A stretch of DNA of 64,000 nucleotides from Promethearchaeota archaeon (GTDB taxonomy: Archaea > Asgardarchaeota > Lokiarchaeia > Sigyniarchaeales > SOKP01): NCBI GenBank assembly GCA_048940605.1, contig JBHLOJ010000005.1, positions 8,254-72,253 on the forward strand, in the 5' to 3' direction. Numbering within the stretch: position 1 is the stretch's first letter; each line of letters begins with the position of its first letter. The notes under the pieces are model-generated. The model did no database searches. It saw nothing but the letters and a program-made list of their open reading frames with translations, and had not been told where the DNA came from. Shown piece by piece: positions 24,985 through 51,093 of this stretch. Position numbers and translations under genes: made by a program.

Positions 24985-26451
24985 TTAAATATACGTATGA
25001 ATTAAATCTACAAGGTTTTTAGAAAAATCTGGTAAATTCTTTTCAATTTTTTCGATTTGGAGAGATTTTTCAATAAATAATAGCAAGTATAGATTATACT
25101 TATCAACCTGGATTTTTTTAAATATTATTTTTTTCGATTCATCTGCTATTCCTGAAGATACTAGAAAATCCTGTTGTAAAATCTTGAACTCTTTGAATGT
25201 TTTATACAGTTCTTGAAAATGAGGAGCAGAAATTTCAAATACTTTTTCAGAAATTTCATCTTTAGAAAAATTAGATAAAATAATTCCATTTTCATTTAAT
25301 AATAATATTGCATCTGAATTGGTTTTTTTAGCAAACTTTTTTAATTGATTTCTAAATAGTTCCCGATTAGGACTCAATTGTGAAAGCCCAAAGGAATATG
25401 CTGTTATTAGACTCCAGTGATCGAAAATACTAGTTTGGAAAATCTTAATTAAGAATCTATCAGAATTCTTCTCTATCTCATCAGCAATTATCTCTAAATT
25501 CTTAAAAATTTCTTTTGAGCCTTTTAAATCTGGATCAAATTTATTTAAGCAAATTACGATAGGAGGGAATTCCTCCAAATCAATTAAGGAGTCTATAATC
25601 TTTCTGAAAAGCTTTAAAGCTTCTCCAATCCTATCAACGTCTTGAATATCAATAAAGAAGTAAATTAGATCAACATTATATAGATAAACTTTACTTTGTT
25701 CAAGGAATCTCTCTCGGTATTGTTTTTGACCAGCTAAATCCCATAGTGTGATCACAGAATTTTGCTCTTCAAAAATATGTTCTTCAGATCTTTCGACTCC
25801 CCTAGTAGGTAAAGCTTTTATAATTTCTGAATACCTTCTTCTTATCCCTAATAGAAAACTTGATTTCCCTGCTTTATCTAATCCTGTTAATAGTACTTTG
25901 ATTTGACGCCTTACAGAGAATGGATCTTTTAGATCTTTTGTGAACTCAAACAATTCCTCTCTAATTTCATCCATAATTCTTTTATGATCGTCCAGTTCTT
26001 TATCTGTTTGTATCTGTGTAGCTGCTTTATCAATCATTATTCTCAAATATTTCATGTTTTCATAAAAAAAGACTCTATCATCCTCATTGATTAATATAGT
26101 AATAGTAGCGGCTAGAGCTTGACCACGTGCAGTTTCTTCAGGAATGAGAAAAAAATATGTTAAACCATTTAATTTCAAATCTGGAAATGGTAAGATACCG
26201 AAATAGTTAACTCCTACATCTGAACCTTGTGAGTCTTGATAAACTGAATCACCCATAAGCAAACTTATAGTTTTCATAGCAATTAAAAGTCCAGATTTCT
26301 CATCTAAATCAATGGGCCAAACAACTCTAGGTGTTGGACCTCTTTCATCGAATATACTTAAAACAATTGCTTTTATTAAGTCAGAGTTGTCAATCTCTGC
26401 ATTTTCTTTATTAACTTGTTTCCCATTCAATTTAGATTCGTTATTAGTCAA
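24985..26451 (-). CDS. three-domain GTPase: novel N-terminal longin-like domain + Rag/Gtr1-like G domain + C-terminal roadblock domain
   Basis: G1 GLDKAGKS, G3 WDLAGQ, G4 NKFD. The G5 region and junction QTSIFDHWSLITAYSFGLSQLSPNRELFRNQLKKFA resemble RagA [34 protein letters not shown]. About 130 aa follow with a roadblock-like alpha-beta-beta-alpha-beta-beta-alpha pattern. Confidence 0.7.
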   Translation of the reverse strand: MTNNESKLNGKQVNKENAEIDNSDLIKAIVLSIFDERGPTPRVVWPIDLDEKSGLLIAMKTISLLMGDSVYQDSQGSDVGVNYFGILPFPDLKLNGLTYFFLIPEETARGQALAATITILINEDDRVFFYENMKYLRIMIDKAATQIQTDKELDDHKRIMDEIREELFEFTKDLKDPFSVRRQIKVLLTGLDKAGKSSFLLGIRRRYSEIIKALPTRGVERSEEHIFEEQNSVITLWDLAGQKQYRERFLEQSKVYLYNVDLIYFFIDIQDVDRIGEALKLFRKIIDSLIDLEEFPPIVICLNKFDPDLKGSKEIFKNLEIIADEIEKNSDRFLIKIFQTSIFDHWSLITAYSFGLSQLSPNRELFRNQLKKFAKKTNSDAILLLNENGIILSNFSKDEISEKVFEISAPHFQELYKTFKEFKILQQDFLVSSGIADESKKIIFKKIQVDKYNLYLLLFIEKSLQIEKIEKNLPDFSKNLVDLIHTYI

Positions 26452-26616: not shown

Positions 26617-28416
26617 TCATGAAATAAATTTCAATCTTACAAGTTTAGATGGTAAAAATGCCTTATTTATAAAATCTACCAAAGTGAGATTATTTCTTTT
26701 AATATCATTCAATGAGATATATTCTATTGCTCCGTTTTGGATGAAAAATTGGTATTCTTCTTGTTTTTTAACCCTTTCTAACAGGTTAATTTCTGCGTTT
26801 TTTTTAAAATGAGTAGAATTAGTATAGTAAAAGGTACCTCCACTAGCTTGAGGTATCGCAATTTTAGGAAAATGCTTTAAATCTAAATTAGCAAAACGAA
26901 AGGGTGCCTTCTTTGAGACATTTTCACTTAATACATATAACTTATTATATTTTCTTGAGAATTCTAAACATAACTGATTCATCTTATTTAGTATTCTTTT
27001 CCCTAAATTGAAAGCATCTGTATGTTCATGTAAGTCAAAATCAGTCAAAAATTTAACTGCTTCATTTAATCCTATAAAACTTATTGATAATTGTTGATCA
27101 TTTAGATTGTATAACAATTTTTCATTAATTACGCCACCACATAATGGTAAATGTTTTGATTTCACCCTTTTCTTTATTATTTCATATTTTTTCAATAAAA
27201 TCTGGGAAGATATTTCCATGTGAATAGCAATAATCTCTAAGAAATTTCCCTCATCTTTACTTATATAAGCATATCGTGGGAGGTTCAAACATACTTCTTG
27301 AAGGATTCCTGAGTTAATATAACCAGCTGAAGTTATTAACTCAATTTCTTTATTTGTTAATGGTTTTATACTGGAATTAACAAGTATGGGTGTTCTCATA
27401 GTGTTAATCTCATTCCAAATATTCGAATACACTTCGTTGAACTCATCTAACCATTTTTTATTTAACAATACCTCATGCTTTGGAGTATTAAACGGATGGT
27501 TGTTGTCGTCCCCTTTATTGAAAGCGATTGTAAGTGCATTAAACAATTTTAGACATTCTTCACTATAGTCTCCATACTTACCTCTAGTATTACTAATAAT
27601 TGGAGCTTGTAAAAACGGTTCAAAAACAGTAGGCCCCGTTTGGATGGAACTCGAAGAAATTGTACTTCCTGTTAAAAAAGATAAATGGTTTAATTCATAG
27701 AGAAAGTTTTTCATTGCAGAAATTAGATCTGAGTCTTTTACATCTTTAATGTAAGGTGATAAACATATTATTAAATGTTTATATCCTTGATTTCCACAAA
27801 ACTCATTTTGCGTTAATGCTAGCCATTTAACTAGATGATGAATTGCTTGTTTTAAATTGTTAGCTGGTTTTAATTTACAGCAAGGGATGAAATTTTTAAT
27901 AGGTGGTATTCCATTCTCTAATATCATACGAGGATCCCAAATTTGGGTCAAAGGTCTTAAATCAAAATATCTTAGTTTATGAATATGGAGATCTCCAGAT
28001 AAATGGGCAGCTGATTCTTCGCTCGTTAAAATTTTTAAATGAGCATATTCTTCAGAAATTCGATTCGCAGCCCTATTATGAATTTTTTCAGGATTAATAA
28101 TTTTTTTTGGATGCTCATCAAATCCACTCTCAAGAATTTTTTCATAGTCCATTAAAGGAATCCCGATTCTTGTGTATAATTTGCGTTCATTTTCAAAGTG
28201 TTGTTCAGAAAGAATTGAACATACAATTTCCCTTATATGTGGCCCTGAGAGAAATTTTATCCCAGAACTAATAATCCTTCTAACTACGAGTTCTGTTATT
28301 TTATTAGCATTCGCTTCGCTCATTCCAGTTTCTTTTATAATACTCTCAAAAATTCTCGATGATTCAAATTCTGCTAGATCCCCTTCAGTTCTAAAAACTT
28401 TTGGAAATAAGTCCAT
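26617..28416 (-). CDS. class III ribonucleotide reductase (NrdD)-like protein lacking the glycyl-radical C-terminus
   Basis: ATP-cone-like N-terminus. GDLHIHKLRY (NrdD GDIHYHDLDY), LNLPRYAY (NrdD LNLPRIAL), FYYTNSTHF (NrdD GYYTNSFHL). The ORF ends soon after, with no Zn-ribbon and no RVCGY motif. Confidence 0.6.
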   Translation of the reverse strand: MDLFPKVFRTEGDLAEFESSRIFESIIKETGMSEANANKITELVVRRIISSGIKFLSGPHIREIVCSILSEQHFENERKLYTRIGIPLMDYEKILESGFDEHPKKIINPEKIHNRAANRISEEYAHLKILTSEESAAHLSGDLHIHKLRYFDLRPLTQIWDPRMILENGIPPIKNFIPCCKLKPANNLKQAIHHLVKWLALTQNEFCGNQGYKHLIICLSPYIKDVKDSDLISAMKNFLYELNHLSFLTGSTISSSSIQTGPTVFEPFLQAPIISNTRGKYGDYSEECLKLFNALTIAFNKGDDNNHPFNTPKHEVLLNKKWLDEFNEVYSNIWNEINTMRTPILVNSSIKPLTNKEIELITSAGYINSGILQEVCLNLPRYAYISKDEGNFLEIIAIHMEISSQILLKKYEIIKKRVKSKHLPLCGGVINEKLLYNLNDQQLSISFIGLNEAVKFLTDFDLHEHTDAFNLGKRILNKMNQLCLEFSRKYNKLYVLSENVSKKAPFRFANLDLKHFPKIAIPQASGGTFYYTNSTHFKKNAEINLLERVKKQEEYQFFIQNGAIEYISLNDIKRNNLTLVDFINKAFLPSKLVRLKFIS

Positions 28417-28571: not shown

Positions 28572-29402
28572 GTGGAATATATGTTAAATTCATATTCTGA
28601 ATCTTCTCTTCATGATTTTTTTACTGAGATTCACAACATTTTGAGAGAAACAAATCCTAAAATAATTGAGATATGGTGTGAAATATCAAAAATTTCCTTT
28701 TTTAATAGATTGGAAAAGACAGAGTTTTATGAATTTATAGATAAATTTGATTTTATATCTCTCAGAAAGGGGAATTATATCTATTATATCGTAATTAATA
28801 AGATTTTATTTATTATTGATTGTATGAGCTTCCTGAAATATGACATCATCTATCTTTCTGAAATTTTAGACTATAATGGATTTGAGGTTTTAATAAAGGA
28901 GATTTTATTAAGAAATAATTATAAGGCAATAACTAATTTTAGATTTTCTGTGAACCCAAAGTTAAAGTTAAAATCAAACATTCATCATAAGAGATATGAG
29001 ATTGATGTTATTGGAATTTATTTAAAATATGTTATAATCATTGATGCAAAACAATGGAGGCGTAAAGATTCCTATGGATCACTAAATAGGGCAGCAAATC
29101 TACAATATAACCGTATTATGGCGTTAACACAAAATCCAGAAGCTTTTTTAAGACTTATTATTTCAATCTTAGGTGAAAGGTTCGATGTAGGGGGGCGTTT
29201 CTCTTTCATTCTTCTGCCTATAATGGTTACTCTCGAAGATAACAGCATAAAGTTAAATGAAAATCAGATACCACTGGTGTCAATACACGAATTGAATGCT
29301 TTTTTACAAGAGATCCCTAATAATCTAAATTATTTTAAAACTCTTCAAATTGATAAAGAAATTCTTAATAAGAATATAAATTATTTTTCTAAGCCCAAGT
29401 AG
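28572..29402 (+). CDS. hypothetical protein with a putative PD-(D/E)xK (Mrr-cat/NERD-like) nuclease core
   Basis: GFEVLIKEILLRNNY ... YEIDVIG ... VIIIDAKQW fits the FE..v..ll / D / (D/E)xK pattern of restriction-endonuclease-fold proteins. Confidence 0.4.
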   Translation: MEYMLNSYSESSLHDFFTEIHNILRETNPKIIEIWCEISKISFFNRLEKTEFYEFIDKFDFISLRKGNYIYYIVINKILFIIDCMSFLKYDIIYLSEILDYNGFEVLIKEILLRNNYKAITNFRFSVNPKLKLKSNIHHKRYEIDVIGIYLKYVIIIDAKQWRRKDSYGSLNRAANLQYNRIMALTQNPEAFLRLIISILGERFDVGGRFSFILLPIMVTLEDNSIKLNENQIPLVSIHELNAFLQEIPNNLNYFKTLQIDKEILNKNINYFSKPK

Positions 29403-30421
29403 TATTTTATTTGCTTTTTTATGAGATTAATAGCAATAGAAATAATCCCACTTTTCACTTTGGGATGAGAAAATAGAATTAATATCATATCTTTTAAATT
29501 TGGATTTTCTCTATCGATGGGTGCCAAATCTAATATACCTTCACTTCCTTTAACACTTATGGATTTAAGGTTTCCTGCACTTAATCCATGAATAATATCA
29601 GAACCAATCATTGAAAGATTCATTCCAATTGTACTAAACAATGATTCAGAAATCCTACTTGAAATAGCTGAAGCTAACATTGTTCCATCTGTTTTTATAA
29701 TCGCTGAAGCTTCAATTCGAGAATCAAGTGTAATTAATTCGTTTAAAATTTCATTCATGTTGGCGGGAGGTATTTTTTTCTCAGGCTCTATTTTAGCTTT
29801 TGATTCGGTTACATGTGGTTCTAATTTCTTTACCGAAATTTTTTTTGATAAGAAACTTAAAACCTCAGTCATATCTTTTTCTAGTCTTTTTTGTTTTAAT
29901 AAAGAAACCTCGGTTTCATCCGTCCTGGAAGGAATAGGTTCTAATGAAGGTTTTAGTTCTTCTTTCTCCTCTTCGAGCATTGATTGTTTAAGTTCTGAAA
30001 ATGCATCAGAAATGGGATCTTTTCTATTTGGTATTAGTGAACTCTGGAATGGTTTTGGTGGTATTTCTTGTAGTGCTTGGCTATTATCTCTTTCTATTTC
30101 TCGTTCAGTTTCGCTTAAACCATCATTAAAAGAATCGATTTCACCCATCTTGCTGTCTTCTGATGGGATTTCATCAAGATTTAATTCTATATCTTTTGGA
30201 ATTTCCTGTAATTTAACCTTTTCTTCCTTTTCATCTATAGTTTCAATTGATATCTCAATCCTTTCACGAGGAGATAATTCTTGATCTATTTTTTCCGATT
30301 TCTTTTTCTTGGATTTTTTTCTATCAGACTTGGAAGAGATTGGGAGTAAAGCCCCACATTTTCTACACGTACGGCTCACTGCTTCGTTATTTGTTGTACC
30401 ACAGTTCTGGCATATGATCAT
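29381..30421 (-). CDS. Zn-ribbon + disordered K/E-rich linker + Roadblock/LC7 (MglB-like) domain protein
   Basis: N-terminal CQNCG...CRKCG. C-terminal EASAIIKTDGTMLASAISS...LFSTIGMNLSMIGSDII...LKSISVKGSEGILDLAPI is a typical Roadblock/LC7 pattern. Strong SD GGAGGGGAG lies 8 nt upstream of the ATG. Confidence 0.75.
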   Translation of the reverse strand: MIICQNCGTTNNEAVSRTCRKCGALLPISSKSDRKKSKKKKSEKIDQELSPRERIEISIETIDEKEEKVKLQEIPKDIELNLDEIPSEDSKMGEIDSFNDGLSETEREIERDNSQALQEIPPKPFQSSLIPNRKDPISDAFSELKQSMLEEEKEELKPSLEPIPSRTDETEVSLLKQKRLEKDMTEVLSFLSKKISVKKLEPHVTESKAKIEPEKKIPPANMNEILNELITLDSRIEASAIIKTDGTMLASAISSRISESLFSTIGMNLSMIGSDIIHGLSAGNLKSISVKGSEGILDLAPIDRENPNLKDMILILFSHPKVKSGIISIAINLIKKQIKYYLGLEK

Positions 30422-30657: not shown

Positions 30658-31635
30658 CTACTTATAAATAATCTCTTTAATTATATTTGCAAAAGTTTCA
30701 AAATCTTCTTTTTGAAAAACGGGATCATCCTTAAGTAACAATAAATAATAGGGAGTTGACTCTTTTTTCAATGTTATCTGTTTAAATATAAAATTTTTTC
30801 CAAATCTTTGGAGTAGCATCCTATCTTCGTATCTATTTTCTTGTACTCCCGTATATTGGAGTGAATCTGAAAGGGTAAGAAAATAAGGTGTCGAAGCGGT
30901 GAGTAAATGCTTAGTTTCTTCATTCTTATAATATGCACCAATCACTAGAGAGTTATCATCAATAACCACCACTCCTTCTGAGTCAATTTTCTTGGCAAAC
31001 TCGATTATTGTTTTTTCAATGAGTTCCGATTTTGGATATAAGCTTAGTAGAATTTCTGACATTGCCCTTATAATAGTTCCAAAATCATAAATGGAAGTCT
31101 CATAAAAATATATTTCCTTATAATCAGTAGCGCTTTTTACTTTCTCTTTTAAATCTATGATGAGATTTTCCATTTCATTTCGTGCTCCTCTTCGTAAGGC
31201 AGGATCATATTTATGAAGAAATACATATATGGGAGGTTCAATTTCTAATTCATAAAATTGTTTAATTACATCCTTAAAATAGCTAATAGCTTCAGGGATT
31301 CTGGGTTTATTTTGAACATCGATAACATAGATTGCAATTTCAGTACCCTCGAAAAATTTACCTGGATTCTTTAAATATGAGATTCTATAGCTAATTTGTC
31401 CACCTAAATCCCATTCTGAGATTTCTTTTCCTAGAAAATCGAAAACCCTTCTTTGGGCACCTCTAGTTGGAGATAATACAGCAATTTTTGAAAATTCTCT
31501 TTGAAGAGACAGTATAATGCTGGTCTTCCCCGCATCATCCAATCCAGTGAATAATAATTTTGAGGGCTCTGGTTTCTGTGGCTCTTCCTTTTTCAAATAC
31601 ATTATTGATTGTTTTAGATCTTTCTCCAAAGTCAA
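30658..31635 (-). CDS. Rag/Gtr1-family GTPase (G domain + C-terminal roadblock domain)
   Basis: 325 aa (human RagA is 313 aa). G1 GLDDAGKTS, G3 WDLGGQ. G4 is HKYD, which matches the Rag-type HKxD rather than NKxD. AIYVIDV (RagA LIYVFDV). ETSIYDFGTIIRAMSEILLSLYPKS (RagA [23 protein letters not shown]). Roadblock-like C-terminal 125 aa. Confidence 0.75.
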   Translation of the reverse strand: MTLEKDLKQSIMYLKKEEPQKPEPSKLLFTGLDDAGKTSIILSLQREFSKIAVLSPTRGAQRRVFDFLGKEISEWDLGGQISYRISYLKNPGKFFEGTEIAIYVIDVQNKPRIPEAISYFKDVIKQFYELEIEPPIYVFLHKYDPALRRGARNEMENLIIDLKEKVKSATDYKEIYFYETSIYDFGTIIRAMSEILLSLYPKSELIEKTIIEFAKKIDSEGVVVIDDNSLVIGAYYKNEETKHLLTASTPYFLTLSDSLQYTGVQENRYEDRMLLQRFGKNFIFKQITLKKESTPYYLLLLKDDPVFQKEDFETFANIIKEIIYK

Positions 31636-31725: not shown

Positions 31726-33093
31726 TTATAAATTATTAGTAATAAATAATTTAAAATCTTCATATTCCTTAATTTCTATTGGATTAGGGAATTCCTTTCT
31801 ATTTTGAATGATCTCCAGTGCATTAGGTAGTTTTGGTTTAACTTTTATTAATGAGATAATTTCATCTGGAAATTTTGCGGGATCAGCAGTTTCAAAGGTA
31901 ATAGATTTAATTTGTTTATGAGAAGAATAATTTTTACGATAGGTTTGAAGAGCTGCCCATCCTACAGCACCATGTGGTTCGATAATTTTTTTATATCTTC
32001 TATAAAAATCTATTATTGTTTCTCTTGTTAAATTATCACTTATAGAATAAGAAATTATATTATCTCTTAGTTTTTCCATATCTGGACTTTTTAAAATAGA
32101 TCCATTTTCATCAATTTGACCCTGATATAAATCAAAGATACGGGCTAAATTGCTGGGGTTCCCAACATTCATAGCAGATGATAAGCAATTTCTTGATGGT
32201 TCAATTTTGTTGTAAATTCCAGAACTTAAAAATTTCGGAAACTCGTCATTCTCATTCACAGCCGAGACAAATTTACCTAGAGGCAATTCCATTCTAGATG
32301 CTATAATACCAGCTGTAAGATTGCCAAAATTACCTGAGGGTACTGAAAAAATGACTTTTTCATTTGGGTGTTGGATAATTCGTGAATAACTCCAAAAGTA
32401 ATAAATAGTTTGAGGAATAAGACGACCAATGTTAATAGAATTTGCAGATGACAAGTTAAAATCCTGTAAATCTTTATCTGCAAAAGCAGTTTTAATAATT
32501 CTTTGGCAATCATCAAATTTTCCATTTATGCCTATTGCTGTAACATTTTTTCCTAAGGTGGTCATTTGTTTTCTTTGAAGTAGACTAATTTCATCTTTCG
32601 GATAGAGAACAACAACTCTAATTCTTGACATTTCATGAAATGCCTGTGCAACTGCGCCTCCCGTATCACCTGAAGTTGCTGTTAATATTATTATTTCTTT
32701 ATCTTCAGTTGAGAGGAAATATTCCATTATTCTTGCTAAGACTCTTGCTCCAAAATCCTTGAAACTACAAGTAGGACCTTTACTTAGATAGCAAAGATAA
32801 TCAAATTTTTCAATTTTTTCCAATCCAATTTCAAAATTTAGAGCATTATGTATAATTTTTCTTAAAGACTGTTCTGGTATTTGCTCTTTAAGAATTTTAG
32901 ATAAGACCTTAAACGCAATTTCTTGTAAATTTAAATCTCCAAAACTAAATATCTCTTGATGTTCCAGAGTTGGAATTCTATTTAACATGTACAAACCTTT
33001 ATCTGAAGCTTGGCCTTTTAAGATGGCAGTCTTAAAGTCGACATCTGGAGCGCTGTAATTTGTTGAGTGAAATTTTATCATAACCGATCTCAT
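31726..33093 (-). CDS. thrC: threonine synthase
   Basis: PLP-lysine motif TCSFKDFGARV, TATSGDTGGAV and SGNFGN, with threonine synthase length and order. Confidence 0.85.
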   Translation of the reverse strand: MRSVMIKFHSTNYSAPDVDFKTAILKGQASDKGLYMLNRIPTLEHQEIFSFGDLNLQEIAFKVLSKILKEQIPEQSLRKIIHNALNFEIGLEKIEKFDYLCYLSKGPTCSFKDFGARVLARIMEYFLSTEDKEIIILTATSGDTGGAVAQAFHEMSRIRVVVLYPKDEISLLQRKQMTTLGKNVTAIGINGKFDDCQRIIKTAFADKDLQDFNLSSANSINIGRLIPQTIYYFWSYSRIIQHPNEKVIFSVPSGNFGNLTAGIIASRMELPLGKFVSAVNENDEFPKFLSSGIYNKIEPSRNCLSSAMNVGNPSNLARIFDLYQGQIDENGSILKSPDMEKLRDNIISYSISDNLTRETIIDFYRRYKKIIEPHGAVGWAALQTYRKNYSSHKQIKSITFETADPAKFPDEIISLIKVKPKLPNALEIIQNRKEFPNPIEIKEYEDFKLFITNNL

Positions 33094-33099
33094 TTATAT

Positions 33100-33642
33100 C
33101 TATTTTAATAATTCGTTGATTTTGTTGATTGCTTCTAGTGGAGAACTTACACCATATATCATGTCATTTCTTCTATTATCTAACTTTTGATTAGCCATCT
33201 TAGAAGACCAACCTTGAACAGATGATAAGGCAACTAAAGGTTTATCATATATCCAGGCAAAACAAATCTCAGATAAAGTTCCTGCTTTACCACTAATGGC
33301 TAAACATAAATCACCTGTAAGAACGACAACAATATTTCTAGCTTGGGAAAAGGGACAAGGTATTACAAGATCTACGTATTTATTAGCATAGTTTTTTTCT
33401 GTATGAGGAATAATACCGATAGTAAAACCGCCCTCTTCTTTAGCACCTTTACATATTGCTTCCATTACGCCAGAAAGTCCCCCACATGCCACAGCATAAT
33501 TATTTTTTGCGATTAATCTACCAATTTCTATAGTAATATTTTCTATCTCTTTATCAATTTCACTAGCTCCAATAACAGAAATTACCGCTTTAAACTTATT
33601 TTTAAAATTAAAACTCATAAAGTCATATCCCCATCTTGTCAA
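33100..33642 (-). CDS. TIGR00725/LOG-like Rossmann-fold nucleotide-binding protein
   Basis: VIGAS....., GGLSGVMEAICKGAKEEGGFTIGIIP, SGKAGTLSE. Confidence 0.65.
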   Translation of the reverse strand: MTRWGYDFMSFNFKNKFKAVISVIGASEIDKEIENITIEIGRLIAKNNYAVACGGLSGVMEAICKGAKEEGGFTIGIIPHTEKNYANKYVDLVIPCPFSQARNIVVVLTGDLCLAISGKAGTLSEICFAWIYDKPLVALSSVQGWSSKMANQKLDNRRNDMIYGVSSPLEAINKINELLK

Positions 33643-33653
33643 TTAAAAATCAA

Positions 33654-34685
33654 CTAAGTTGTATAACCTCTTTTTATTGATATAGCAATTAAATCGTTTA
33701 TAATAGCAGATGCTGCTTCAAAGCTTCCTGCACCTCTCCCCATTAAAAGTATTGGTCCTGCATATTTAGTTTCTAATTCCACTATATTAAAGGTTCCGTT
33801 AATATTAAGAGGAGAACTTTTATCAATTAAACGAGGTTCAACTGATAATTCACCATTTTCTGCTATTGCTAAATGTTTGATAACATAACCATCTGGTTTA
33901 ACTAATTCAATCGCGTGAGTAGTTACTTTCGAAATGCCTTCAACTTTAACGTCAGTAATAGTTTTTGACCATCCTAACAATTCATTTGCTAATATAACTA
34001 ACTTTCCAGCAGCATCATATCCATCGATATCTAAAGTAGGATCTGATTCAGCATATCCCAGTTCCTGCGCCTCTTTTAAAGCTAAAGGAAAATCAACGCC
34101 TTCTGCAGTCATTCTGCTTAAAATAAAGTTGGAAGTACCATTTAATATCGCTCTAATACTGAGAATTTCATTACCAATTAAATCTTCTTTAATCCCTAAT
34201 GAAGGAACACAACTTGCCACGGTTGCTTCAAATTTCACATAGCAATTATTTTGTTTAGCTAAATTCTTAATTTTATCATATTCCAGATAGAATGGTCCTT
34301 TATTTGAAGAAATTACATCAATACCATTATTGAGGGCTTCAATAATATGAGATAAACCAGGTTCTCCGGTTTTAGGGTTTGTAGGGGTAGTTTCTATGCA
34401 AATGGATATATCTAATTTAGAAATTAAATCAATAGCTTTTACATTTTTCCTCCAATAAGGCAAATTTCTAAAATTGTCACCGACATCTAGTACTTCTTTT
34501 AGATCAATTCCATTTTCATTAATAAGTGCTCCATCTATTTCAAAAATGGAATTCACTATAACGTTTAAATTAAATTTTTGTTCGAGAAACTGATTCTTTT
34601 CATATAATAATTGAATTAAACTAGTTCCAACTATACCTTTTCCAATTAGACAAATATTGACGTTCATCATTTTTATTAAATTCAA
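33654..34685 (-). CDS. hom: homoserine dehydrogenase
   Basis: N-terminal Rossmann motif LIGKGIVGT. SSNKGP, FEATVASCVP, ILNGTSNFILSRM, AQELGYAESDPTLDIDGYDAAGKL. Confidence 0.85.
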   Translation of the reverse strand: MNLIKMMNVNICLIGKGIVGTSLIQLLYEKNQFLEQKFNLNVIVNSIFEIDGALINENGIDLKEVLDVGDNFRNLPYWRKNVKAIDLISKLDISICIETTPTNPKTGEPGLSHIIEALNNGIDVISSNKGPFYLEYDKIKNLAKQNNCYVKFEATVASCVPSLGIKEDLIGNEILSIRAILNGTSNFILSRMTAEGVDFPLALKEAQELGYAESDPTLDIDGYDAAGKLVILANELLGWSKTITDVKVEGISKVTTHAIELVKPDGYVIKHLAIAENGELSVEPRLIDKSSPLNINGTFNIVELETKYAGPILLMGRGAGSFEAASAIINDLIAISIKRGYTT

Positions 34686-34765
34686 TTTAATATTATTCTG
34701 GATTTAGAGTAATTTTTGTCGGCAATTCGTCGTTTAATTTATTAAATCTAATAATCATTCTTTCA

Positions 34766-35257
34766 TCAGCTAGTAATTAAGAATAACTTTTTCTCCTCAC
34801 AAATTTTTCTTAGTTCATTATTAAGCTCCTTCTTATTCATATCTTCTGGGAATTCGATTTTTAGCTTAACATTACTCACTTCTTCTAATTCTGTAAACTT
34901 AGCTTGTAATTCTAACACATTTATATTTTTTGAAGCTAATCTTTTTATTGTATCCATCACATCTGTGTCAAATACGTGACCTGTTAAAATAATGGTAATT
35001 AGCTTCTTTTCAATCTCGTAATTTATATTCTCAATTTGAATATTTTTTTCTTTTAACTCTCTTTTTATATTTTTTATACTAATTTCTTGAATTTCCTCAT
35101 TCAATTCGAAAGTTACATTTACAGGGATTAAATTATTGATTTTTCTATCATGGAAGTGAAGTATCCCATAAATGTTTCCACCATTTTTAGAAATAGGTTT
35201 AATTAACTCAATTAAACTTCCAGGAGTATCTGGCAACTTTACTTCCAAATTTATCAT
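34766..35257 (-). CDS. ACT-domain protein (probable amino-acid-binding regulatory subunit)
   Basis: LEVKLPDTPGSLIELIKPISKNGGNI is an ACT-type beta-alpha start. A second ACT-like half follows. The gene lies directly upstream of hom. Confidence 0.55.
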   Translation of the reverse strand: MINLEVKLPDTPGSLIELIKPISKNGGNIYGILHFHDRKINNLIPVNVTFELNEEIQEISIKNIKRELKEKNIQIENINYEIEKKLITIILTGHVFDTDVMDTIKRLASKNINVLELQAKFTELEEVSNVKLKIEFPEDMNKKELNNELRKICEEKKLFLITS

Positions 35258-35352: not shown

Positions 35353-36318
35353 TTAAAATTTTATTACATCAATAGACTCTTCCTTTCCGTTATTTATTCT
35401 CAGAAGATTTGGATCTTTAATAATGTTACCTATAATATTAGTATTTAACCCATATTCTTGAAATGTCTCTGCTATTTCTTTACAGTTTGCTTTAGGAGCA
35501 GTTAATATAAATGAAGTTGTTAAATACATTTTAATGTAGGTTTCTAAATCGTAACCATCATCTAATAATTTTCGAGGAATTTTAATTTTAGAAATATTCA
35601 CGTCAGCACCGACTTTCGAATAATTAATCATTTGACACAAAGTACCAAAAATTCCTCCATTGGATACATCTTTGGACGCATTAACTATATGTTTTTGCGC
35701 AATTACGTTCATAGATTTTCTCTTTCTCAATATTTCTTCGGAATTTTTAAATGTAGTGGTATCATAATATAATTTACTTGCCTTACCTGGTTTTCCATCA
35801 AAATCAACAGCTAATATAATATTATCTCCTACTTGTGCATTACCCGCAGATATATAATCTTCCTTTTTAATTTCACCTATCATTGTAGAACTTAGCTCAT
35901 AATATTTTCCATTTACATTAGTATGCCCTCTAATAATCGGAACTTTAAATTTCTGGGAACCTTCACATATTCCTTCAAGCAAATCATTACAGATATCTGG
36001 TTCTTTTACAGAAATAATTATACTTGCAGCTAATGGAATCCCGCCACATGCGTAGATGTCATCTACACTAACTAAGATTGAACTAAAACCTGCTCCGAAA
36101 GGAAAATTTTCTATGAAGGTGGTTTTTATTCTGTCAGTAGTAACCAGTATATATTTATCATCATTTTTGATAGTAGCAGCATCTTCCCCTATATCTGAAT
36201 AAATTCTTGCACTTTTAAACGATTTTTTATCAATAAATTGAACAATTGGACTTATTTGTTTCTTTTCTTGAATGTATTGATTGTTCTTAATACTATTAGC
36301 TATCTTTTTAAGTGTCAT
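35353..36318 (-). CDS. AIR synthase-related (PurM/ThiL/HypE superfamily) protein
   Basis: IGEDAATI...ILVTTDRI N-domain pattern and the DVSNGGIFGTL C-domain pattern. Confidence 0.6.
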   Translation of the reverse strand: MTLKKIANSIKNNQYIQEKKQISPIVQFIDKKSFKSARIYSDIGEDAATIKNDDKYILVTTDRIKTTFIENFPFGAGFSSILVSVDDIYACGGIPLAASIIISVKEPDICNDLLEGICEGSQKFKVPIIRGHTNVNGKYYELSSTMIGEIKKEDYISAGNAQVGDNIILAVDFDGKPGKASKLYYDTTTFKNSEEILRKRKSMNVIAQKHIVNASKDVSNGGIFGTLCQMINYSKVGADVNISKIKIPRKLLDDGYDLETYIKMYLTTSFILTAPKANCKEIAETFQEYGLNTNIIGNIIKDPNLLRINNGKEESIDVIKF

Positions 36319-36454: not shown

Positions 36455-37960
36455 ATGGAGGAATTATTTGAAACCTCAATTATAAAGGGGTTAATTTTCA
36501 GTTCATATGGAGACTTAGGTCCGCAACCAATTTATGTATGGCCTAAATATTATACTGAAAAAGAATTAGAAAAGATTAAAGAGGAAAGGCAAAGACAAAA
36601 CCTTCTTACATTAACAACCAGAGATGTAACCCAAATCTCTATAAAAAACCTTAGTTTATTTATTAGCGATAAGGTATTTACACCAGATATTGATACTCAA
36701 AATTTAACGTATTTCGCCATATTACCTTATCCAGATTTCAGTGTAACCTCTTTAACATATTTTCATTATATTAATATTAATTCTTCTAACTCTCAGATCC
36801 CTACTGCTTTTTCAATATTAGTTGAAGAAAATAGTAGAAGTTTTTTATATAATAATATAAACAGAATTAAACCTATTGTGATTGAATTTTTCAGATCATT
36901 TGATAATAATTTGATAGATAATTATCCACCTCAAGAGAAAATAGAGCCTGCTTTTTATGAATTATTCAAAAAGATAGTTGAAATTGAGAGAAGTCCATCA
37001 ACACCTATTACAACCCATAGAAAAATGAAGATTCTATTTGCTGGATTAGATGACAGTGGAAAAACTAGTTTTTTACTTTCTGTAGATCGCAAATATAGTA
37101 AGTTAATAGGTTTAAAACCAACAACAGGGGCAAGTATCAAATCAATTGAGGCTTTGGGAGCAACAATATTTTTATGGGATCTGGGAGGTCAACTTACTTT
37201 TAGAAAGAAATATATTACTAAAGCAGAAATTTATTTATATGAAGCAGATTTGTTGTTTTATTTTATTGATATCAGAAACAAAATTAGGTTTGAAGAAAGC
37301 ATTGAATATCTTTTAGATTTGAAAAAAGTATTGAAGCAGTTTAATCAAAATACTCCAATCATTTACATTTTATCAAAGGGAGATTCGGATATAATTAAAA
37401 CTGGAGAAATTATAGAAAATATCGAAATTGTGAAAAATAGATTAAATGAAATTTCACCAGAAGAATCCCCTGAGATATATGTGACTAGTATCTTTCAAAT
37501 ATTTACCATATTGAGAGCATTCTCATCTGGAATCTCAAAATTGAGCCCTAATAGAAATTTAATCAATCATAATCTTAGAAACTTCTCGATAAAAACAAGT
37601 TCATATCTTACACTGTTGTTAAGTGTAGATGGTTTAGTTTTGGCAGATTTTTATTCCCCTAAAGCGAGTAAATTAACAAAGATAACTGAATCAGAAGAAA
37701 TAATTAACGTGTTTGAGGTAACAGCACCGCAATTCGCCATGTTATTTAAAATATTCTCTAGATTTAAAGCGTTGCAACAAGAAGAAGCGGTATTTAAAGT
37801 TGCAGACTCAGTGATACTTTTCAAAAAGATTAAAGTAGCAGAGAACGACATGTTCATCTTATTTCTGATTGATAGTGAAAAAAGAAAAGAAAAAATAAAT
37901 ACTAAATTAACCACTTTCCTCGATCAAACAAATGATCTACTCTTAAGATATATATCTTAA
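36455..37960 (+). CDS. three-domain GTPase, paralog of 24985..26451 (N-terminal longin-like domain + Rag-like G domain + roadblock domain)
   Basis: G1 GLDDSGKTS, G3 WDLGGQ, degenerate G4 SKGD. VTSIFQIFTILRAFSSGISKLSPNRNLINHNLRNFS junction. The N-terminal domain aligns with ORFs at 24985, 50014 and 51220. Confidence 0.7.
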   Translation: MEELFETSIIKGLIFSSYGDLGPQPIYVWPKYYTEKELEKIKEERQRQNLLTLTTRDVTQISIKNLSLFISDKVFTPDIDTQNLTYFAILPYPDFSVTSLTYFHYININSSNSQIPTAFSILVEENSRSFLYNNINRIKPIVIEFFRSFDNNLIDNYPPQEKIEPAFYELFKKIVEIERSPSTPITTHRKMKILFAGLDDSGKTSFLLSVDRKYSKLIGLKPTTGASIKSIEALGATIFLWDLGGQLTFRKKYITKAEIYLYEADLLFYFIDIRNKIRFEESIEYLLDLKKVLKQFNQNTPIIYILSKGDSDIIKTGEIIENIEIVKNRLNEISPEESPEIYVTSIFQIFTILRAFSSGISKLSPNRNLINHNLRNFSIKTSSYLTLLLSVDGLVLADFYSPKASKLTKITESEEIINVFEVTAPQFAMLFKIFSRFKALQQEEAVFKVADSVILFKKIKVAENDMFILFLIDSEKRKEKINTKLTTFLDQTNDLLLRYIS

Positions 37961-37978
37961 ATAACACGTTATATGTGG

Positions 37979-38881
37979 TTAAAAAAGAACATTTAAAGGA
38001 CTTTTTTCAGATATTTTTTTCCTTAGGATTCTTTTTCTAAAGTAGGAATTTACCGCAGAGATCAAAGCAACTGCAGGTACGATACATTTTGCAAACTTTA
38101 CGGGTCCAAATAATATAAAATCACTTGGTGCATTAGCACAATAAGTCATAATAGAAGCGATTGCCCCACATCTTGGAATATCACCATACTTCTTTACAAA
38201 ATCCCATCCATAAATAGCATTCGCGGGAGCAAATCCAGTAGGCAAACCTAATTCACTTTTAACCATATGAGTGGTTTCAAAATTTATTGAGATTGAAGGT
38301 AAATCTAAAACTGCTGTATCGATTATTACATTTTCGATATTTGCTTTTTCAGCTTTAGGAATTAATGTTTCTTTTAACATCTTTAGTTTTTGATGAGGGA
38401 AAATATATTTACTTCCAAAAGTTAGTAATACTGCGTTTCTAACACCAATTTCTCTAATTTTCTCGAGATTTTCTTCACTGGTTGCCTCATCTATGCTATT
38501 TAAAATAGCTCTATTGATTAATCCTATTTCTTTTAGTCCTTCCATAGCAGGAATTCGAGATGAATCGTTTAATCCGTCCACCAAAAAAGGATAATCTATA
38601 ATATCTGCCACAAATTCACATTCTTTCAATAAGGCATCTGAATATGCCCCAACAACATCGATAATCCCTTGCATTTTAGTATCTTCTATAATTTCAGTAT
38701 ACTCATTTAATTCTTTTTCAACAAGAGGTTTATCTATTTCACCAGTTTTTTCATTTAATAAAGCAGCATGTTTGGTATAAAAAACGGTACCAATCATTAC
38801 AATTGGATTTTCTCCTGGTTGACCACCTACTCTAACCTCACCAATTTGGGCTATTTTTTGCTCAGATTCAAAATTTAACAT
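37979..38881 (-). CDS. mtrH: MtrH-family methyltransferase (tetrahydromethanopterin S-methyltransferase subunit H homolog)
   Basis: The N-terminus FESEQKIAQIGEVRVGGQPGENP mirrors MtrH FDKEQEVFEIGGVKFGGQPGENP. AILNSI, LGLPTG and FILFGPV...PAVA are also conserved. Confidence 0.75.
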   Translation of the reverse strand: MLNFESEQKIAQIGEVRVGGQPGENPIVMIGTVFYTKHAALLNEKTGEIDKPLVEKELNEYTEIIEDTKMQGIIDVVGAYSDALLKECEFVADIIDYPFLVDGLNDSSRIPAMEGLKEIGLINRAILNSIDEATSEENLEKIREIGVRNAVLLTFGSKYIFPHQKLKMLKETLIPKAEKANIENVIIDTAVLDLPSISINFETTHMVKSELGLPTGFAPANAIYGWDFVKKYGDIPRCGAIASIMTYCANAPSDFILFGPVKFAKCIVPAVALISAVNSYFRKRILRKKISEKSPLNVLF

Positions 38882-51054: not shown

Positions 51055-51069
51055 AAAACACTAAATTTC

Positions 51070-51093
51070 TTCGTGAAAGACTTCTTTCACGAA
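51070..51093 (+). terminator. hairpin between the tandem GTPase paralogs
   Basis: TTCGTGAAAG-actt-CTTTCACGAA, a perfect 10-bp stem 16 nt after the stop, followed by an A/T-rich tract. Confidence 0.4.

What the first reader, a model, noticed from the sequence alone, without database searches (positions are those of the whole stretch)
36455..37960. Second three-domain Rag-like GTPase with a degenerate G4 motif: candidate heterodimer partner
It has the same architecture as 24985..26451, but G4 is SKGD instead of NKxD/HKxD. It lies on the opposite strand, about 10 kb away, and the two genes flank the Rag-like/roadblock pair and the threonine operon. Eukaryotic Rags work as obligate heterodimers of two diverged paralogs (A/B with C/D) held together by their roadblock domains. 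Two diverged paralogs with roadblock C-termini in one locus invite the same hypothesis. A degenerate G4 could change nucleotide specificity or affinity.
Basis: inference. Interest (0 to 1): 0.7.

Follow-up and report, generated by a model that had tools for sequence, protein, structure and literature searches.

The report
Second Asgard longin–Rag-like GTPase–roadblock paralog
This is an intact, strongly conserved Lokiarchaeial GTPase of a published three-domain kind (longin, Rag-like GTPase, roadblock); its SKGD motif is a normal family variant, and its real difference from its neighbour paralog is the lack of a folliculin-like arginine in the longin domain, which leaves the heterodimer idea open but unproven.

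Summary
ORF 36455..37960 (+, 501 aa) is a full-length paralog (31% identity) of 24985..26451 (−). It has three domains: longin, Rag/Arf-like GTPase and Rag-type roadblock. Its G4 motif is SKGD.

SKGD is not degenerate. It is fixed in the ortholog clade (S 67/68, K and D 68/68). The gene is under strong purifying selection (dN/dS 0.04–0.10). Among 138 representative relatives, the first G4 residue is H 91, S 15, N 15, T 8. The guanine-specifying Lys and Asp and motifs G1–G3 and G5 are intact.

This domain architecture is already published for Lokiarchaeia. What I did not find in the papers searched is an asymmetry in the longin domain:
- Both paralogs carry the GP motif of FLCN/NPRL2-type GAP longins.
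- Only the A-type (24985..26451) keeps an invariant loop "ARG" motif. This aligns weakly with FLCN A163-R164-G165.
- The B-type (this gene) has lost it.

The two types stay in one cluster with a LokiRagO ortholog and a Zn-ribbon–roadblock gene in every locus long enough to show it. The whole neighbourhood is collinear, and the genes are not in an operon.

The A:B heterodimer could not be tested here (about 0.4). A B:B homodimer is nearly as likely.

The parts
36455..37960 (+). B-type LGR gene (longin–Rag-like GTPase–roadblock), 501 aa, the gene of the finding
   Evidence: ORF. Translation. Pfam Gtr1_RagA 68.4 bits, Arf 58.4 bits. 120 full-length orthologs at 60-96% identity. dN/dS 0.04-0.10 and no stop codons in 10 orthologs.
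36455..37000 (+). N-terminal longin domain (residues 1-182), FLCN/NPRL2-class
   Evidence: AF2 of the domain alone: pLDDT 89.4, pTM 0.88, ββαβββαα. Foldseek top hits: Lokiarchaeota longin 8yqg (E 3.5e-7), then Lst4, NPRL2/3, SMCR8/C9orf72 and FLCN/FNIP2 longins. Family profile vs PDB: 8yqg 'Longin domain', E 0.0025.
36518..36523 (+). GP motif (G22-P23) at the end of the β1-β2 loop
   Evidence: Invariant in all 22 diverse family members and in 110 A and B orthologs. The position matches the GP motif defined for GAP longins in PMC12290439, section 2.4. It locally aligns to NPRL2 residues 7-29 (weak).
36776..36793 (+). β4-β5 loop of the longin domain (residues 108-113, INSSNS); no Arg here, and the loop is variable across the B clade
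   Evidence: Loop position from AF2. Per-column Arg frequency in 68 B orthologs versus 42 A orthologs.
37019..37537 (+). Rag/Arf-like G domain (residues 189-361)
   Evidence: Pfam. PDB sequence hits: LokiRagO 8yl2 E 1.8e-27, RagA E 2e-11. Foldseek hits to 8yl2, RagA/C and Gtr1/2.
37043..37066 (+). G1 / P-loop GLDDSGKT
   Evidence: G, G, K and T are invariant in 68 B orthologs.
37178..37192 (+). G3 / switch II DLGGQ, with the catalytic-position Gln
   Evidence: W-D-x-G-G-Q is conserved in 67-68 of 68 orthologs.
37373..37384 (+). G4 SKGD (S307 K308 G309 D310)
   Evidence: B clade: S 67 / T 1, K 68, G 65, D 68 of 68. More distant B-type clades have SK[AV]D, SKID or TK[FV]D. Family-wide first residue: H 91, S 15, N 15, T 8.
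37541..37957 (+). C-terminal Rag-type roadblock domain (residues 363-501), beginning with the conserved LSPNR motif
   Evidence: AF2 αββαβββα topology. Family profile vs PDB: LokiRagO C-terminal domain E 8.5e-5, RagA C-terminal domain E 0.015, Gtr1 E 0.025.
24985..26451 (-). A-type LGR paralog (488 aa; G4 NKFD); candidate partner or trans-acting GAP subunit
   Evidence: Orthologs at 75-100% identity. Eighteen of the contig lengths in that list also appear in the B list.
26122..26130 (-). A-type longin β4-β5 loop motif A108-R109-G110: candidate arginine finger
   Evidence: Arg in 42/42 A orthologs and in all 9 A-supergroup representatives. Pfam Folliculin profile positions 49-105 match this segment, below threshold, in A-type sequences only. 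The A-type profile places ARG on FLCN A163-R164-G165 (hhalign E 0.026, hmmsearch E 7e-4).
30658..31635 (-). Two-domain Rag-like GTPase (G domain + roadblock, G4 HKYD); ortholog of LokiRagO
   Evidence: PDB 8yl2, E 5.9e-87 over residues 5-320. 8yl2 is titled 'Homo Tetrameric RagA-like small GTPase from Asgard Lokiarchaeota'.
29381..30421 (-). Zn-ribbon, long acidic linker and roadblock/LC7 domain protein, immediately downstream of the LokiRagO ortholog
   Evidence: Pfam zinc-ribbon hits are below the gathering score (best 20.7 bits against a cut-off of 25). Robl_LC7 structure 7f8m, E 2.5e-4, residues 221-303. Adjacency is conserved in the loci examined.

Best explanation
Shown: the gene encodes a functional, conserved B-type member of the Lokiarchaeial LGR family. 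LGR means an N-terminal FLCN/NPRL2-class longin domain, a Rag/Arf-like G domain and a Rag-type roadblock domain. All nucleotide-binding motifs are intact. SKGD is a lineage-fixed, conservative variant of [N/T/H]KxD that keeps the guanine-specifying Lys and Asp.

Inferred: the protein is an ordinary guanine-nucleotide switch, not a protein with altered specificity. Like other roadblock and longin proteins, it acts as a dimer built on roadblock:roadblock and longin:longin platforms.

Shown at sequence level: its longin domain keeps the GP motif but has lost the loop arginine. A-type LGRs, and the longin–GTPase pair at 50014..52245, keep that arginine. In A-type it aligns with the folliculin Arg164 finger.

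Inferred, about 0.4: B therefore cannot supply an arginine finger itself and depends on an Arg-bearing longin acting in trans. The prime candidate is the co-retained A-type paralog 24985..26451, in an asymmetric A:B complex. That complex would resemble a RagA/C heterodimer and an FLCN–FNIP, NPRL2–NPRL3 or SMCR8–C9orf72 longin heterodimer at the same time.

The core statement (functional switch GTPase of a known architecture with a normal G4) has about 0.85 confidence. The stated confidence of 0.4 is for the whole statement, including the A:B trans mechanism.
For: Function and conservation:
- 120 full-length orthologs.
- dN/dS 0.04-0.10.
- G1-G5 conserved.

Domains:
- AF2 models.
- Foldseek hits to LokiRagO, RagA/C and Gtr1/2.
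- Foldseek hits of the longin domain to a Loki longin, Lst4, NPRL2/3, SMCR8/C9orf72 and FLCN/FNIP2.
- Profile hits to PDB.

G4 variability.

Longin asymmetry:
- GP is invariant in both types.
- ARG is present in 42/42 A orthologs and absent from B.
- Pfam Folliculin is the only recurrent family (9 of 22 domains), and the individual scans put it in A-type sequences over the ARG segment.
- ARG aligns with FLCN R164.
- Two A-supergroup representatives with broken G1/G3 (P0287, P0309) still keep ARG, which suggests the Arg serves something other than its own G domain.

Co-retention and linkage:
- 18 contig lengths appear in both ortholog lists.
- The cluster A–NERD–ZnRB–Rag325–LOG–AIRS–B is present in 9 species genomes.
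- It is also present in a lineage where B is only 43% identical.
- It is present in 6 of 6 metagenome loci that reach far enough.

Literature:
- In SMCR8:C9orf72 both longins have GP and only SMCR8 has the finger (PMC12290439 section 2.4; PMC8213707).
Against: - No dimer was modelled or measured here.
- A and B are on opposite strands, 5-11 kb apart and in separate transcription units.
- The whole neighbourhood, including metabolic genes, is collinear, so linkage is not specific evidence.
- In one more distant lineage the A-type gene keeps its NERD and transglutaminase neighbours but has no Rag-like or B-type gene within 10 kb.
- By PDB title, the solved Lokiarchaeial Rag-like GTPases are a homotetramer (LokiRagO) and a monomer (LokiRagM).
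- Published AF2 models show homodimers for longin-containing MK-D1 GTPases (PMC10933270, Supplementary Fig. 8).
- A crude rate-covariation test gave A–B r = 0.32, lower than B–Rag325 at 0.74.
- The ARG–R164 equivalence rests on a short alignment with weak statistics. Pfam hits are below the gathering score, and no structural superposition was done.
- Other Arg-bearing longins in the same genome could be the GAP instead, for example the LG pair at 50014..52245.
Confidence: 0.4

Rival explanations
1. B and A are independent switches that each form homodimers (B:B and A:A) through their roadblock and longin domains. They are paralogs with separate clients. B's GTPase activity is intrinsic or is stimulated by some other GAP.
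For: - Prokaryotic roadblock and longin proteins solved so far are homo-oligomers: Thor-RB, MKD1-RB and Odin-RBLC7 homodimers (PMC10933270), the dimeric Loki longin 8yqg and the homotetrameric LokiRagO 8yl2.
- AF2 homodimers have been published for longin-containing MK-D1 GTPases.
- A and B are separate transcription units on opposite strands.
- The cluster is broken in locus L020.
- A–B rate covariation is weak.
Against: - It does not explain why the Arg-less B-type and the Arg-bearing A-type are both kept, and kept linked, over a divergence where B falls to 42-44% identity.
- A B:B dimer would have two GP longins and no finger. No known longin GAP complex is built that way (PMC12290439).
Confidence: 0.35
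2. B works as a monomer. Its own longin and roadblock domains pack against each other as an intramolecular pseudo-dimer platform that holds its own G domain, so no partner is needed.
For: - Longin and roadblock folds are related and both form two-fold platforms for GTPases (PMC3747258, abstract).
- A monomeric Lokiarchaeial Rag-like GTPase exists: LokiRagM, 8zla/9m28.
Against: - The full-length AF2 model has good domains but a low pTM of 0.54, while the longin domain alone reaches 0.88. AF2 therefore finds no confident fixed inter-domain packing.
- The nearest solved longin (8yqg) is a homodimer.
- I could not inspect PAE or coordinates.
Confidence: 0.12
3. The Ser in G4 changes nucleotide specificity or greatly weakens affinity, so B is a nucleotide-free or non-guanine 'pseudo-switch' subunit.
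For: - In classical GTPases the G4 Asn contacts the base and braces the P-loop (own knowledge). Replacing it could lower affinity.
- B evolves about 1.4 times faster than A: mean distance 0.42 versus 0.29.
Against: - Asp310 and Lys308, the specificity determinants, are invariant.
- [N/T]KxD is the textbook G4 consensus (own knowledge), and Ser is a conservative stand-in for Thr.
- S and T together are as common as N in this family, and H dominates. The HKFD-bearing LokiRagO was crystallised with GTP.
- G1, G2, G3 and G5 are all intact, unlike the truly degenerate LGR clades such as P0259, P0264, P0267 and P0274.
Confidence: 0.05
4. The ORF is a decaying duplicate (pseudogene) and SKGD is a chance lesion.
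For: None found.
Against: - Intact in all 10 orthologous loci examined, with dN/dS 0.04-0.10.
- 120 full-length orthologs and 74 metagenome loci.
- SKxD is fixed in the clade.
Confidence: 0.01

Closest known systems
Lokiarchaeial LGR (longin–GTPase–roadblock) Rag-like GTPases of 'Ca. Prometheoarchaeum syntrophicum' MK-D1 (Tran et al. 2024, PMC10933270, e.g. WP_147663355, WP_147663364); also the longin–Rag fusions noted by Liu et al. (bioRxiv 10.1101/2020.10.19.343400)
   Same: - Same three-domain order.
- Same Rag/Arf-like G domain.
- The LokiRagO gene (WP_147663357) has an accession number close to the two LGR genes, which hints at the same cluster.
   Different: - Those papers describe the architecture and AF2 homodimers only.
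- They do not separate an Arg-bearing A-type from an Arg-less B-type with [S/T]KxD.
- They do not report the conserved A…RagO–ZnRB…B neighbourhood.
- Orthology of the MK-D1 proteins to A and B was not verified here.
LokiRagO (PDB 8yl2) and LokiRagM (PDB 8zla/9m28), solved Lokiarchaeial Rag-like GTPases
   Same: - Best sequence and fold matches of B's G domain plus roadblock part (E 1.8e-27; Foldseek E 2e-16).
- The window's own 325-aa gene is the LokiRagO ortholog.
   Different: - They have two domains and no longin.
- LokiRagO's G4 is HKFD.
- By PDB title they are a homotetramer and a monomer, not heterodimers.
- No paper describing them was found.
Eukaryotic Rag/Gtr GTPases (RagA/B–RagC/D, Gtr1–Gtr2)
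   Same: - G domain of the Gtr1_RagA family followed by a C-terminal roadblock domain.
- Two diverged paralogs in one genome.
- A non-Asn first residue in G4 (HKxD in Rags).
   Different: - Eukaryotic Rags have no N-terminal longin domain.
- Their obligate heterodimer, Ragulator anchoring and TORC1 output have no demonstrated counterpart here.
- Identity is only 15-20%.
Longin-domain GAP heterodimers: FLCN–FNIP, NPRL2–NPRL3 (GATOR1) and SMCR8–C9orf72
   Same: - The longin domain is structurally closest to this group.
- The GP motif precedes β2.
- The A-type loop ARG aligns with FLCN A163-R164-G165.
- One Arg-bearing and one Arg-less paralog, as in each of these pairs.
   Different: - No DENN or NPRL C-terminal domains. 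Here the longin is fused to the GTPase itself.
- Sequence similarity is limited to two short motifs, with sub-threshold statistics.
- GAP activity is untested.
- B itself fails the Arg-finger criterion.
MglA–MglB (bacterial Ras-like GTPase with a roadblock-dimer GAP)
   Same: A small GTPase working on a roadblock-fold dimer platform, which is the prokaryotic precedent for roadblock/longin regulation of GTPases (PMC10933270 introduction).
   Different: - MglB is a separate homodimeric protein with no arginine finger.
- MglA is a different GTPase family.
- There is no fusion and no longin domain.

Membership tests
P-loop small GTPase (TRAFAC class) with functional G1-G5 | G1 GxxxxGK[ST], G2 Thr, G3 DxxG(Q), G4 [NTH..]KxD and G5 present and conserved | tested here: met
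   GLDDSGKT, PTT, DLGGQ, SKGD and TSI are present. They are conserved in 68 orthologs.
Rag/Gtr family (Pfam PF04670 Gtr1_RagA) | G domain scores above the family's curated threshold | tested here: met
   68.4 bits against a gathering score of 22, covering profile positions 1-227 of 232. Arf (PF00025) also passes at 58.4 bits, so the domain sits between the Rag and Arf families.
Rag/Gtr family | C-terminal roadblock domain directly after the G domain | tested here: met
   AF2 αββαβββα topology, residues 367-500. Foldseek alignments of about 300-330 columns to RagA/C and Gtr1/2. C-terminal profile against RagA residues 179-263, E 0.015, and against LokiRagO, E 8.5e-5.
Rag/Gtr family | Obligate heterodimer of two diverged paralogs joined through the roadblock domains | not testable with these tools
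   No multimer prediction or coordinates were available. Only indirect evidence exists: co-retention, linkage and longin asymmetry.
Rag/Gtr family | Two-domain architecture (G domain + roadblock) with no further domains | tested here: not met
   There is an extra 182-residue N-terminal longin domain.
Asgard LGR architecture (Tran et al. 2024) | Longin – Rag/Arf-like GTPase – roadblock in one chain, in Lokiarchaeia | tested here: met
   Description in PMC10933270. Taxon labels of orthologs and related loci are Promethearchaeota/Lokiarchaeia.
Longin domain | ββαβββαα fold | tested here: met
   AF2 of the domain: pLDDT 89.4, pTM 0.88. Foldseek hit to 8yqg: TM 0.62/0.71, E 3.5e-7. Profile hit to 8yqg: E 0.0025.
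FLCN/NPRL2/SMCR8-type GAP longin | GP motif at the end of the loop before β2 | tested here: met
   G22-P23 is invariant in 22 diverse LGR domains and in 110 orthologs. β2 starts at residue 23. The motif is defined in PMC12290439, section 2.4.
FLCN/NPRL2/SMCR8-type GAP longin | Catalytic arginine finger in the longin loop next to the GP motif | tested here: not met
   There is no conserved Arg in B's β4-β5 loop (INSSNS, variable across the clade). It is met in the A-type paralog: ARG in 42/42 orthologs, aligned to FLCN R164. B therefore resembles the non-catalytic subunit (C9orf72 or FNIP), not the GAP subunit.
FLCN/NPRL2/SMCR8-type GAP longin | Sequence membership in Pfam Folliculin (PF11704) above threshold | tested here: not met
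   B's N-terminal domain gives no hit. The A-type domains scanned individually score 12.4-19.9 bits; the best of the nine matching members has E 1.1e-4. All scores seen are below the 23.3-bit cut-off.
FLCN/FNIP/SMCR8/C9orf72 (longin-DENN proteins) | C-terminal DENN domain | tested here: not met
   The region after the longin domain is a G domain plus a roadblock domain.
Pseudogene / pseudoGTPase | Frameshifts or stop codons, relaxed selection, or loss of catalytic motifs | tested here: not met
   No stop codons and dN/dS 0.04-0.10. Motifs are intact. By contrast, the degenerate LGR clades have broken G1/G3.

The most novel reading that the evidence does not exclude
A-type and B-type LGR proteins form an asymmetric heterodimer that combines two eukaryotic modules in two chains: the Rag heterodimer (two G domains on a roadblock dimer) and its longin GAP (one Arg-bearing FLCN/NPRL2/SMCR8-like longin paired with one Arg-less FNIP/NPRL3/C9orf72-like longin). 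The A-type Arg109 would act in trans on the G domain of B. This would be a fused archaeal counterpart, and possibly a precursor, of the Rag–folliculin/GATOR1 system. It would sit in a conserved cluster with a LokiRagO-type GTPase and a Zn-ribbon–roadblock protein.
Probability: 0.25. Interest if true: 0.85.

Novelty: new variant of a known kind. Interest (0 to 1): 0.55.

Why it matters
Rag GTPases and their longin-domain GAPs (folliculin, GATOR1) are the core of eukaryotic amino-acid sensing. How this two-GTPase, two-longin machinery arose is an open question.

This locus shows that Lokiarchaeia keep two ancient paralogs in which a Rag-like GTPase is fused to a folliculin/NPRL2-class longin domain. 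Only one paralog type retains the folliculin-like arginine.

If the two pair up, the characteristic asymmetry of both the Rag heterodimer and its GAP would predate eukaryotes. It could then be studied in a compact two-protein system.

If they do not pair, the gene is simply one more well-conserved member of a published Asgard GTPase architecture. Either way, the 'degenerate G4' feature that drew attention is ordinary.

Tried and rejected
1. Pseudogene or strain-specific SKGD: rejected.
2. SKGD as a specificity change: rejected as unsupported. K and D are invariant, and the family-wide first residue is H/S/N/T.
3. A functional link to the threonine operon, on the analogy of Rag amino-acid sensing: rejected. 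ACT, HomDH and ThrC, and also NrdD, are variably present inside the cluster (absent in L008, L009, L012, L013 and many metagenome loci), while the GTPase genes stay.
4. Heterodimer test by structure prediction: not possible.
5. Rate covariation among 10 genomes: A–B r = 0.32, B–Rag325 0.74, A–Rag325 0.50. There are too few, non-independent points, so this is inconclusive.
6. Profile-profile alignment of the longin family to NPRL2: only the β1–GP–β2 segment aligns (E 0.019, probability 2.5%). Global modes gave nonsense, so the NPRL2 R78 equivalence is not established by sequence.
7. The Pfam Folliculin hits are sub-threshold and restricted to A-type sequences; B gives none.
8. A paper on LokiRagO/LokiRagM or on PDB 8yl2/8zla/9m28: none found.
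9. Expression evidence: only DNA metagenome runs hold the gene, no RNA runs.
10. L043 looked like a locus lacking A, but it is cut by a transposase-like ORF and a truncated NrdD at the contig end.
Full report
**1. The observation**

The window is low-GC DNA, about 29%. Its closest relatives are Promethearchaeia/Lokiarchaeia metagenome-assembled genomes.

ORF 36455..37960 (+) encodes 501 aa. I call it B. It aligns over its whole length with the 488-aa product of 24985..26451 (−), which I call A: 31% identity, E 1e-78. Both exceed the Pfam gathering scores for Gtr1_RagA and Arf.

AlphaFold2 on an alignment of 110 orthologs gave mean pLDDT 78.8 and pTM 0.54, with three units:
- residues 10-179, ββαβββαα, which is the longin topology;
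- a G domain, residues 189-361;
- residues 367-500, αββαβββα, which is the roadblock topology.

G4 is S307-K308-G309-D310. A has NKFD. The 325-aa Rag-like gene between them (30658..31635) has HKYD.

Between A and B lie:
- an NrdD-like gene and a NERD-like gene;
- a Zn-ribbon–roadblock gene (29381..30421);
- the 325-aa Rag-like gene;
- ThrC, a SLOG/LOG-like gene, homoserine dehydrogenase and an ACT-domain gene;
- an AIR-synthase-related gene.

**2. Is the gene real and working?**

Yes.
- 120 listed cluster representatives cover the query fully at 60-96% identity.
- Ten orthologous loci have no stop codons, and pairwise dN/dS against the window is 0.04-0.10. That is the same range as A (0.04-0.07) and the 325-aa Rag-like gene (0.03-0.08).
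- In 68 B orthologs the motifs are conserved: G1 GLDDSGKT, the switch-I Thr, G3 WDLGGQ and G5 TSI. G4 is S 67 / T 1, K 68, G 65, D 68.

SKGD is therefore a fixed clade character, not a lesion.

Across 138 representatives (50% identity clusters) of the wider family, the first G4 residue is H 91, S 15, N 15, T 8. Among three-domain proteins it is S 9, T 6, H 6, N 4.

The textbook consensus is [N/T]KxD and eukaryotic Rags use HKxD (own knowledge). LokiRagO, which has HKFD, was crystallised with GTP.

I find no basis for calling this G4 degenerate or for expecting a changed specificity. At most it might modulate affinity.

**3. What the domains are**

*G domain plus C-terminal domain.*
- The best PDB matches are 8yl2, 'Homo Tetrameric RagA-like small GTPase from Asgard Lokiarchaeota (LokiRagO)', followed by RagA/RagC and Gtr1/Gtr2. 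8zla/9m28, 'monomeric Rag-like small GTPase (LokiRagM)', also appears.
- A profile of the C-terminal domain alone finds the C-terminal domains of LokiRagO (E 8.5e-5), RagA (0.015) and Gtr1 (0.025).

*N-terminal domain.*
- Folded alone it gives pLDDT 89.4 and pTM 0.88.
- Its structural neighbours are a dimeric Lokiarchaeota longin domain (8yqg, E 3.5e-7), then Lst4 (the yeast FNIP), chains of the GATOR1 and SEA complexes (NPRL2/NPRL3, Npr2/Npr3), C9orf72:SMCR8 and FLCN–FNIP2.
- This is the longin group that acts as GAPs for Rag and Arf GTPases. SNARE, TRAPP and adaptin longins are not among the hits.

The three-domain architecture is already in the literature:
- Tran et al. [quoted passage not shown] They show AF2 homodimers for longin-containing ones and a heterodimer for a two-gene operon pair (PMC10933270).
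- Liu et al. noted longin–Rag fusions and NPRL2-like longins in Asgard archaea.

**4. A difference between A and B that matters more than G4**

Both paralogs, and all 22 diverse family members I aligned, have an invariant Gly-Pro at the end of the β1-β2 loop (G22-P23 in B).

A 2025 survey defines exactly this 'GP motif'. It is specific to the GAP longins FLCN, NPRL2, SMCR8 and C9orf72 and to some Asgard longins, and it lies next to the arginine finger (PMC12290439, sections 2.4 and 2.6).

In the β4-β5 loop the two types differ:
- The A clade reads GLTYFFLIPdxxARGxALAaTITvLId, with Arg in 42 of 42 orthologs.
- All nine representatives of the wider A-type group have [A/V]RG.
- The B clade, its more distant positional orthologs and a clade of degenerate LGRs have a variable loop with no conserved Arg (B: INSSNS).

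Evidence that this Arg corresponds to the folliculin finger:
- Pfam Folliculin (PF11704) is the only family hit recurrently by these domains: 9 of 22, best E 1.1e-4, always below the gathering score.
- In the individual scans, the hits are in A-type sequences only and cover profile positions 49-105, the segment that holds ARG.
- I confirmed from PDB 6ulg_L that human FLCN residues 153-178 read SHTFFIKDSLA-R164-GFQRWYSIITIMMD.
- The A-type profile aligns TyFFLIpDE~ARG~Ak-AaTItiLV onto this segment with Arg on R164 (hhalign E 0.026, hmmsearch E 7e-4). The B-type profile does not align there.

These statistics are weak and the stretch is short. Alignment to NPRL2 works only around the GP motif. 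I did no structural superposition, so the equivalence is a well-motivated inference, not a demonstration.

Two further observations fit a trans-acting role:
- Two A-type representatives with broken G1/G3 motifs still keep ARG.
- The window's tandem longin–Rab-like genes (50014..51054 and 51220..52245) carry GP plus KRGG/RRGG in the same loop. This suggests the Arg is ancestral and B lost it.

**5. Genomic context**

With the 325-aa gene as anchor, 12 species-level genomes were fetched. In all nine that have enough flank on both sides the order is:

orf38960 – MtrH – B – AIRS – [ACT – HomDH] – LOG – [ThrC] – Rag325 – ZnRB – NERD – [NrdD] – A – transglutaminase.

The bracketed genes are absent in some genomes.

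Deeper and broader sampling:
- A lineage in which B is only 43% identical (A 59%, Rag325 56%) has the same order in a compact 11 kb without the thr genes or NrdD.
- A metagenome scan gave 74 B-type loci at 42-91% identity.
- The AIRS-like gene is divergently adjacent in 44 of 45 loci with enough upstream sequence.
- MtrH is convergent in 44 of 51 loci with enough downstream sequence.
- A is present in 6 of 6 loci that extend at least 2.9 kb past NERD.
- The one apparent exception ends in a transposase-like ORF.
- Proteins 36% identical to B, with [S/T]KxD, sit in the same AIRS/orf38960 frame and so are positional orthologs of B.

Limits of this evidence:
- In one more distant lineage an A-type gene (43% identity) keeps its NERD and transglutaminase neighbours but has no Rag-like or B-type gene within 10 kb.
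- A and B are co-retained and linked over a long divergence. However, the whole neighbourhood is collinear and the two genes are separate transcription units on opposite strands. Linkage alone is weak evidence of physical pairing.
- The threonine genes are a variable insertion, not a conserved associate.

**6. How it most likely works**

*Shown.*
- B is a conserved, selected, motif-complete Rag/Arf-like GTPase.
- It carries a Rag-type roadblock domain and an FLCN/NPRL2-class longin domain.
- That longin domain has the GP motif but no loop arginine.

*Inferred.*
- B binds guanine nucleotides and cycles as a switch.
- It dimerises through roadblock and longin platforms, as these folds do elsewhere.
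- Since its own longin lacks the finger, GTP hydrolysis on B, if stimulated at all, needs an Arg-bearing longin in trans.

The most economical candidate is the A-type paralog, in an A:B complex. Its roadblock pair would resemble RagA/C. Its longin pair would resemble SMCR8:C9orf72, where both longins have GP and only one has the finger (PMC8213707; PMC12290439).

My probabilities:
- A:B trans mechanism: about 0.4.
- Separate B:B and A:A homodimers: about 0.35. Supporting this, solved prokaryotic roadblock, longin and Loki Rag-like proteins are homo-oligomers or monomers, and published AF2 models show homodimers.
- Monomer with an intramolecular longin–roadblock platform: about 0.12. The low pTM of the full-length model argues weakly against a fixed intramolecular arrangement.
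- A crude rate-covariation test did not single out the A–B pair.

**7. Comparison and novelty**

B is a member of the published Asgard LGR architecture and of the Gtr1_RagA/Arf sequence families.

It is not a eukaryote-type Rag:
- it has an extra longin domain;
- heterodimerisation is untested.

It is not a folliculin-type GAP subunit:
- it has no finger;
- it has no DENN domain;
- it has no Pfam membership in the Folliculin family.

I did not find the following in the papers searched:
- the split of LGR proteins into an Arg-bearing A-type ([N/H]KxD in most) and an Arg-less B-type ([S/T]KxD);
- their conserved neighbourhood with the LokiRagO ortholog and a Zn-ribbon–roadblock protein.

I therefore rate it a new variant of a known kind, of moderate interest. 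It would be of high interest if the asymmetric A:B complex is confirmed.

**8. Verdict**

- The 'degenerate G4' reading is not supported.
- The heterodimer hypothesis remains open. It now has one new, specific, testable argument in its favour: the longin Arg asymmetry.
- The decisive tests are multimer modelling and simple biochemistry, listed in the next-steps field.

Noticed in passing
window 50014..51054 (+) and 51220..52245 (+); also 52990..53559 (−): A tandem pair of 346-aa and 341-aa genes. Each has the same GP-motif longin domain (local HMM E about 1e-18), with KRGG or RRGG in the β4-β5 loop, fused to a Rab-like G domain (GDPxVGKTS, WDxxGQ, GNKxD, ETSA). There is no roadblock domain. 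A 189-aa Rab-like small GTPase lies just downstream on the other strand. As adjacent same-strand paralogs, these two are a more operon-like heterodimer candidate than A/B, and they are possible alternative GAPs for B.
   Followed up: partly
window 30658..31635 (−): The 325-aa Rag-like gene is the ortholog of the crystallised LokiRagO (PDB 8yl2, E 5.9e-87), which is titled a homotetramer with GTP bound. Its sequence matches the MK-D1 protein WP_147663357 in Tran et al.'s Supplementary Fig. 6. That accession number lies between those of two MK-D1 LGR proteins, which hints at the same cluster in the cultured strain.
   Followed up: partly
window 29381..30421 (−): A protein with an N-terminal zinc ribbon (Pfam hits below the gathering score), a roughly 200-residue acidic, Lys/Glu-rich linker and a C-terminal roadblock/LC7 domain. 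It always sits next to the LokiRagO ortholog and evolves fast: 33-75% identity where Rag325 is 56-94%.
   Followed up: partly
window 31726..35257 (−) and 26617..28416 (−); loci L008, L009, L012, L013, L027, L028 and others: The threonine-pathway genes (ThrC, homoserine dehydrogenase, ACT-domain protein) and the NrdD-like gene are present in some lineages and absent in others inside the otherwise fixed GTPase cluster. Their position between the Rag-like genes is therefore not a conserved association.
   Followed up: yes
window 35353..36318 (−) and 37979..38881 (−): B is flanked almost invariably by a divergently transcribed AIR-synthase-related gene and a convergent MtrH/MtgA-like methyltransferase gene. 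The AIRS-like gene resembles 'methanogenesis marker 2' but scores below the cut-off. The AIRS pairing persists even for B-type proteins only 36% identical: 44 of 45 and 44 of 51 loci respectively. No functional link is evident.
   Followed up: partly
proteins P0259, P0264, P0267, P0272, P0274, P0275, P0287, P0309 (relatives): Several three-domain LGR clades have broken G1 and/or G3 motifs, for example GLKNSGRTS / WDLNINE and GLPKAGKKS / WNIKENE, while the longin GP motif is kept. In P0287 and P0309 the ARG loop is kept too. These are likely pseudoGTPases that retain a longin function.
   Followed up: partly
locus L043 1..2307: A 568-aa transposase-like ORF and a truncated NrdD N-terminal fragment interrupt the cluster upstream of the NERD-like gene in one metagenome contig.
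   Followed up: no
window 36455..37960 versus 24985..26451 and 30658..31635 across 10 genomes: B evolves about 1.4-1.5 times faster than A and Rag325: mean corrected distances 0.42 versus 0.29 and 0.28. After removing the shared trend, B's distances covary more with Rag325 (r = 0.74) than with A (r = 0.32). The sample is small and non-independent.
   Followed up: partly
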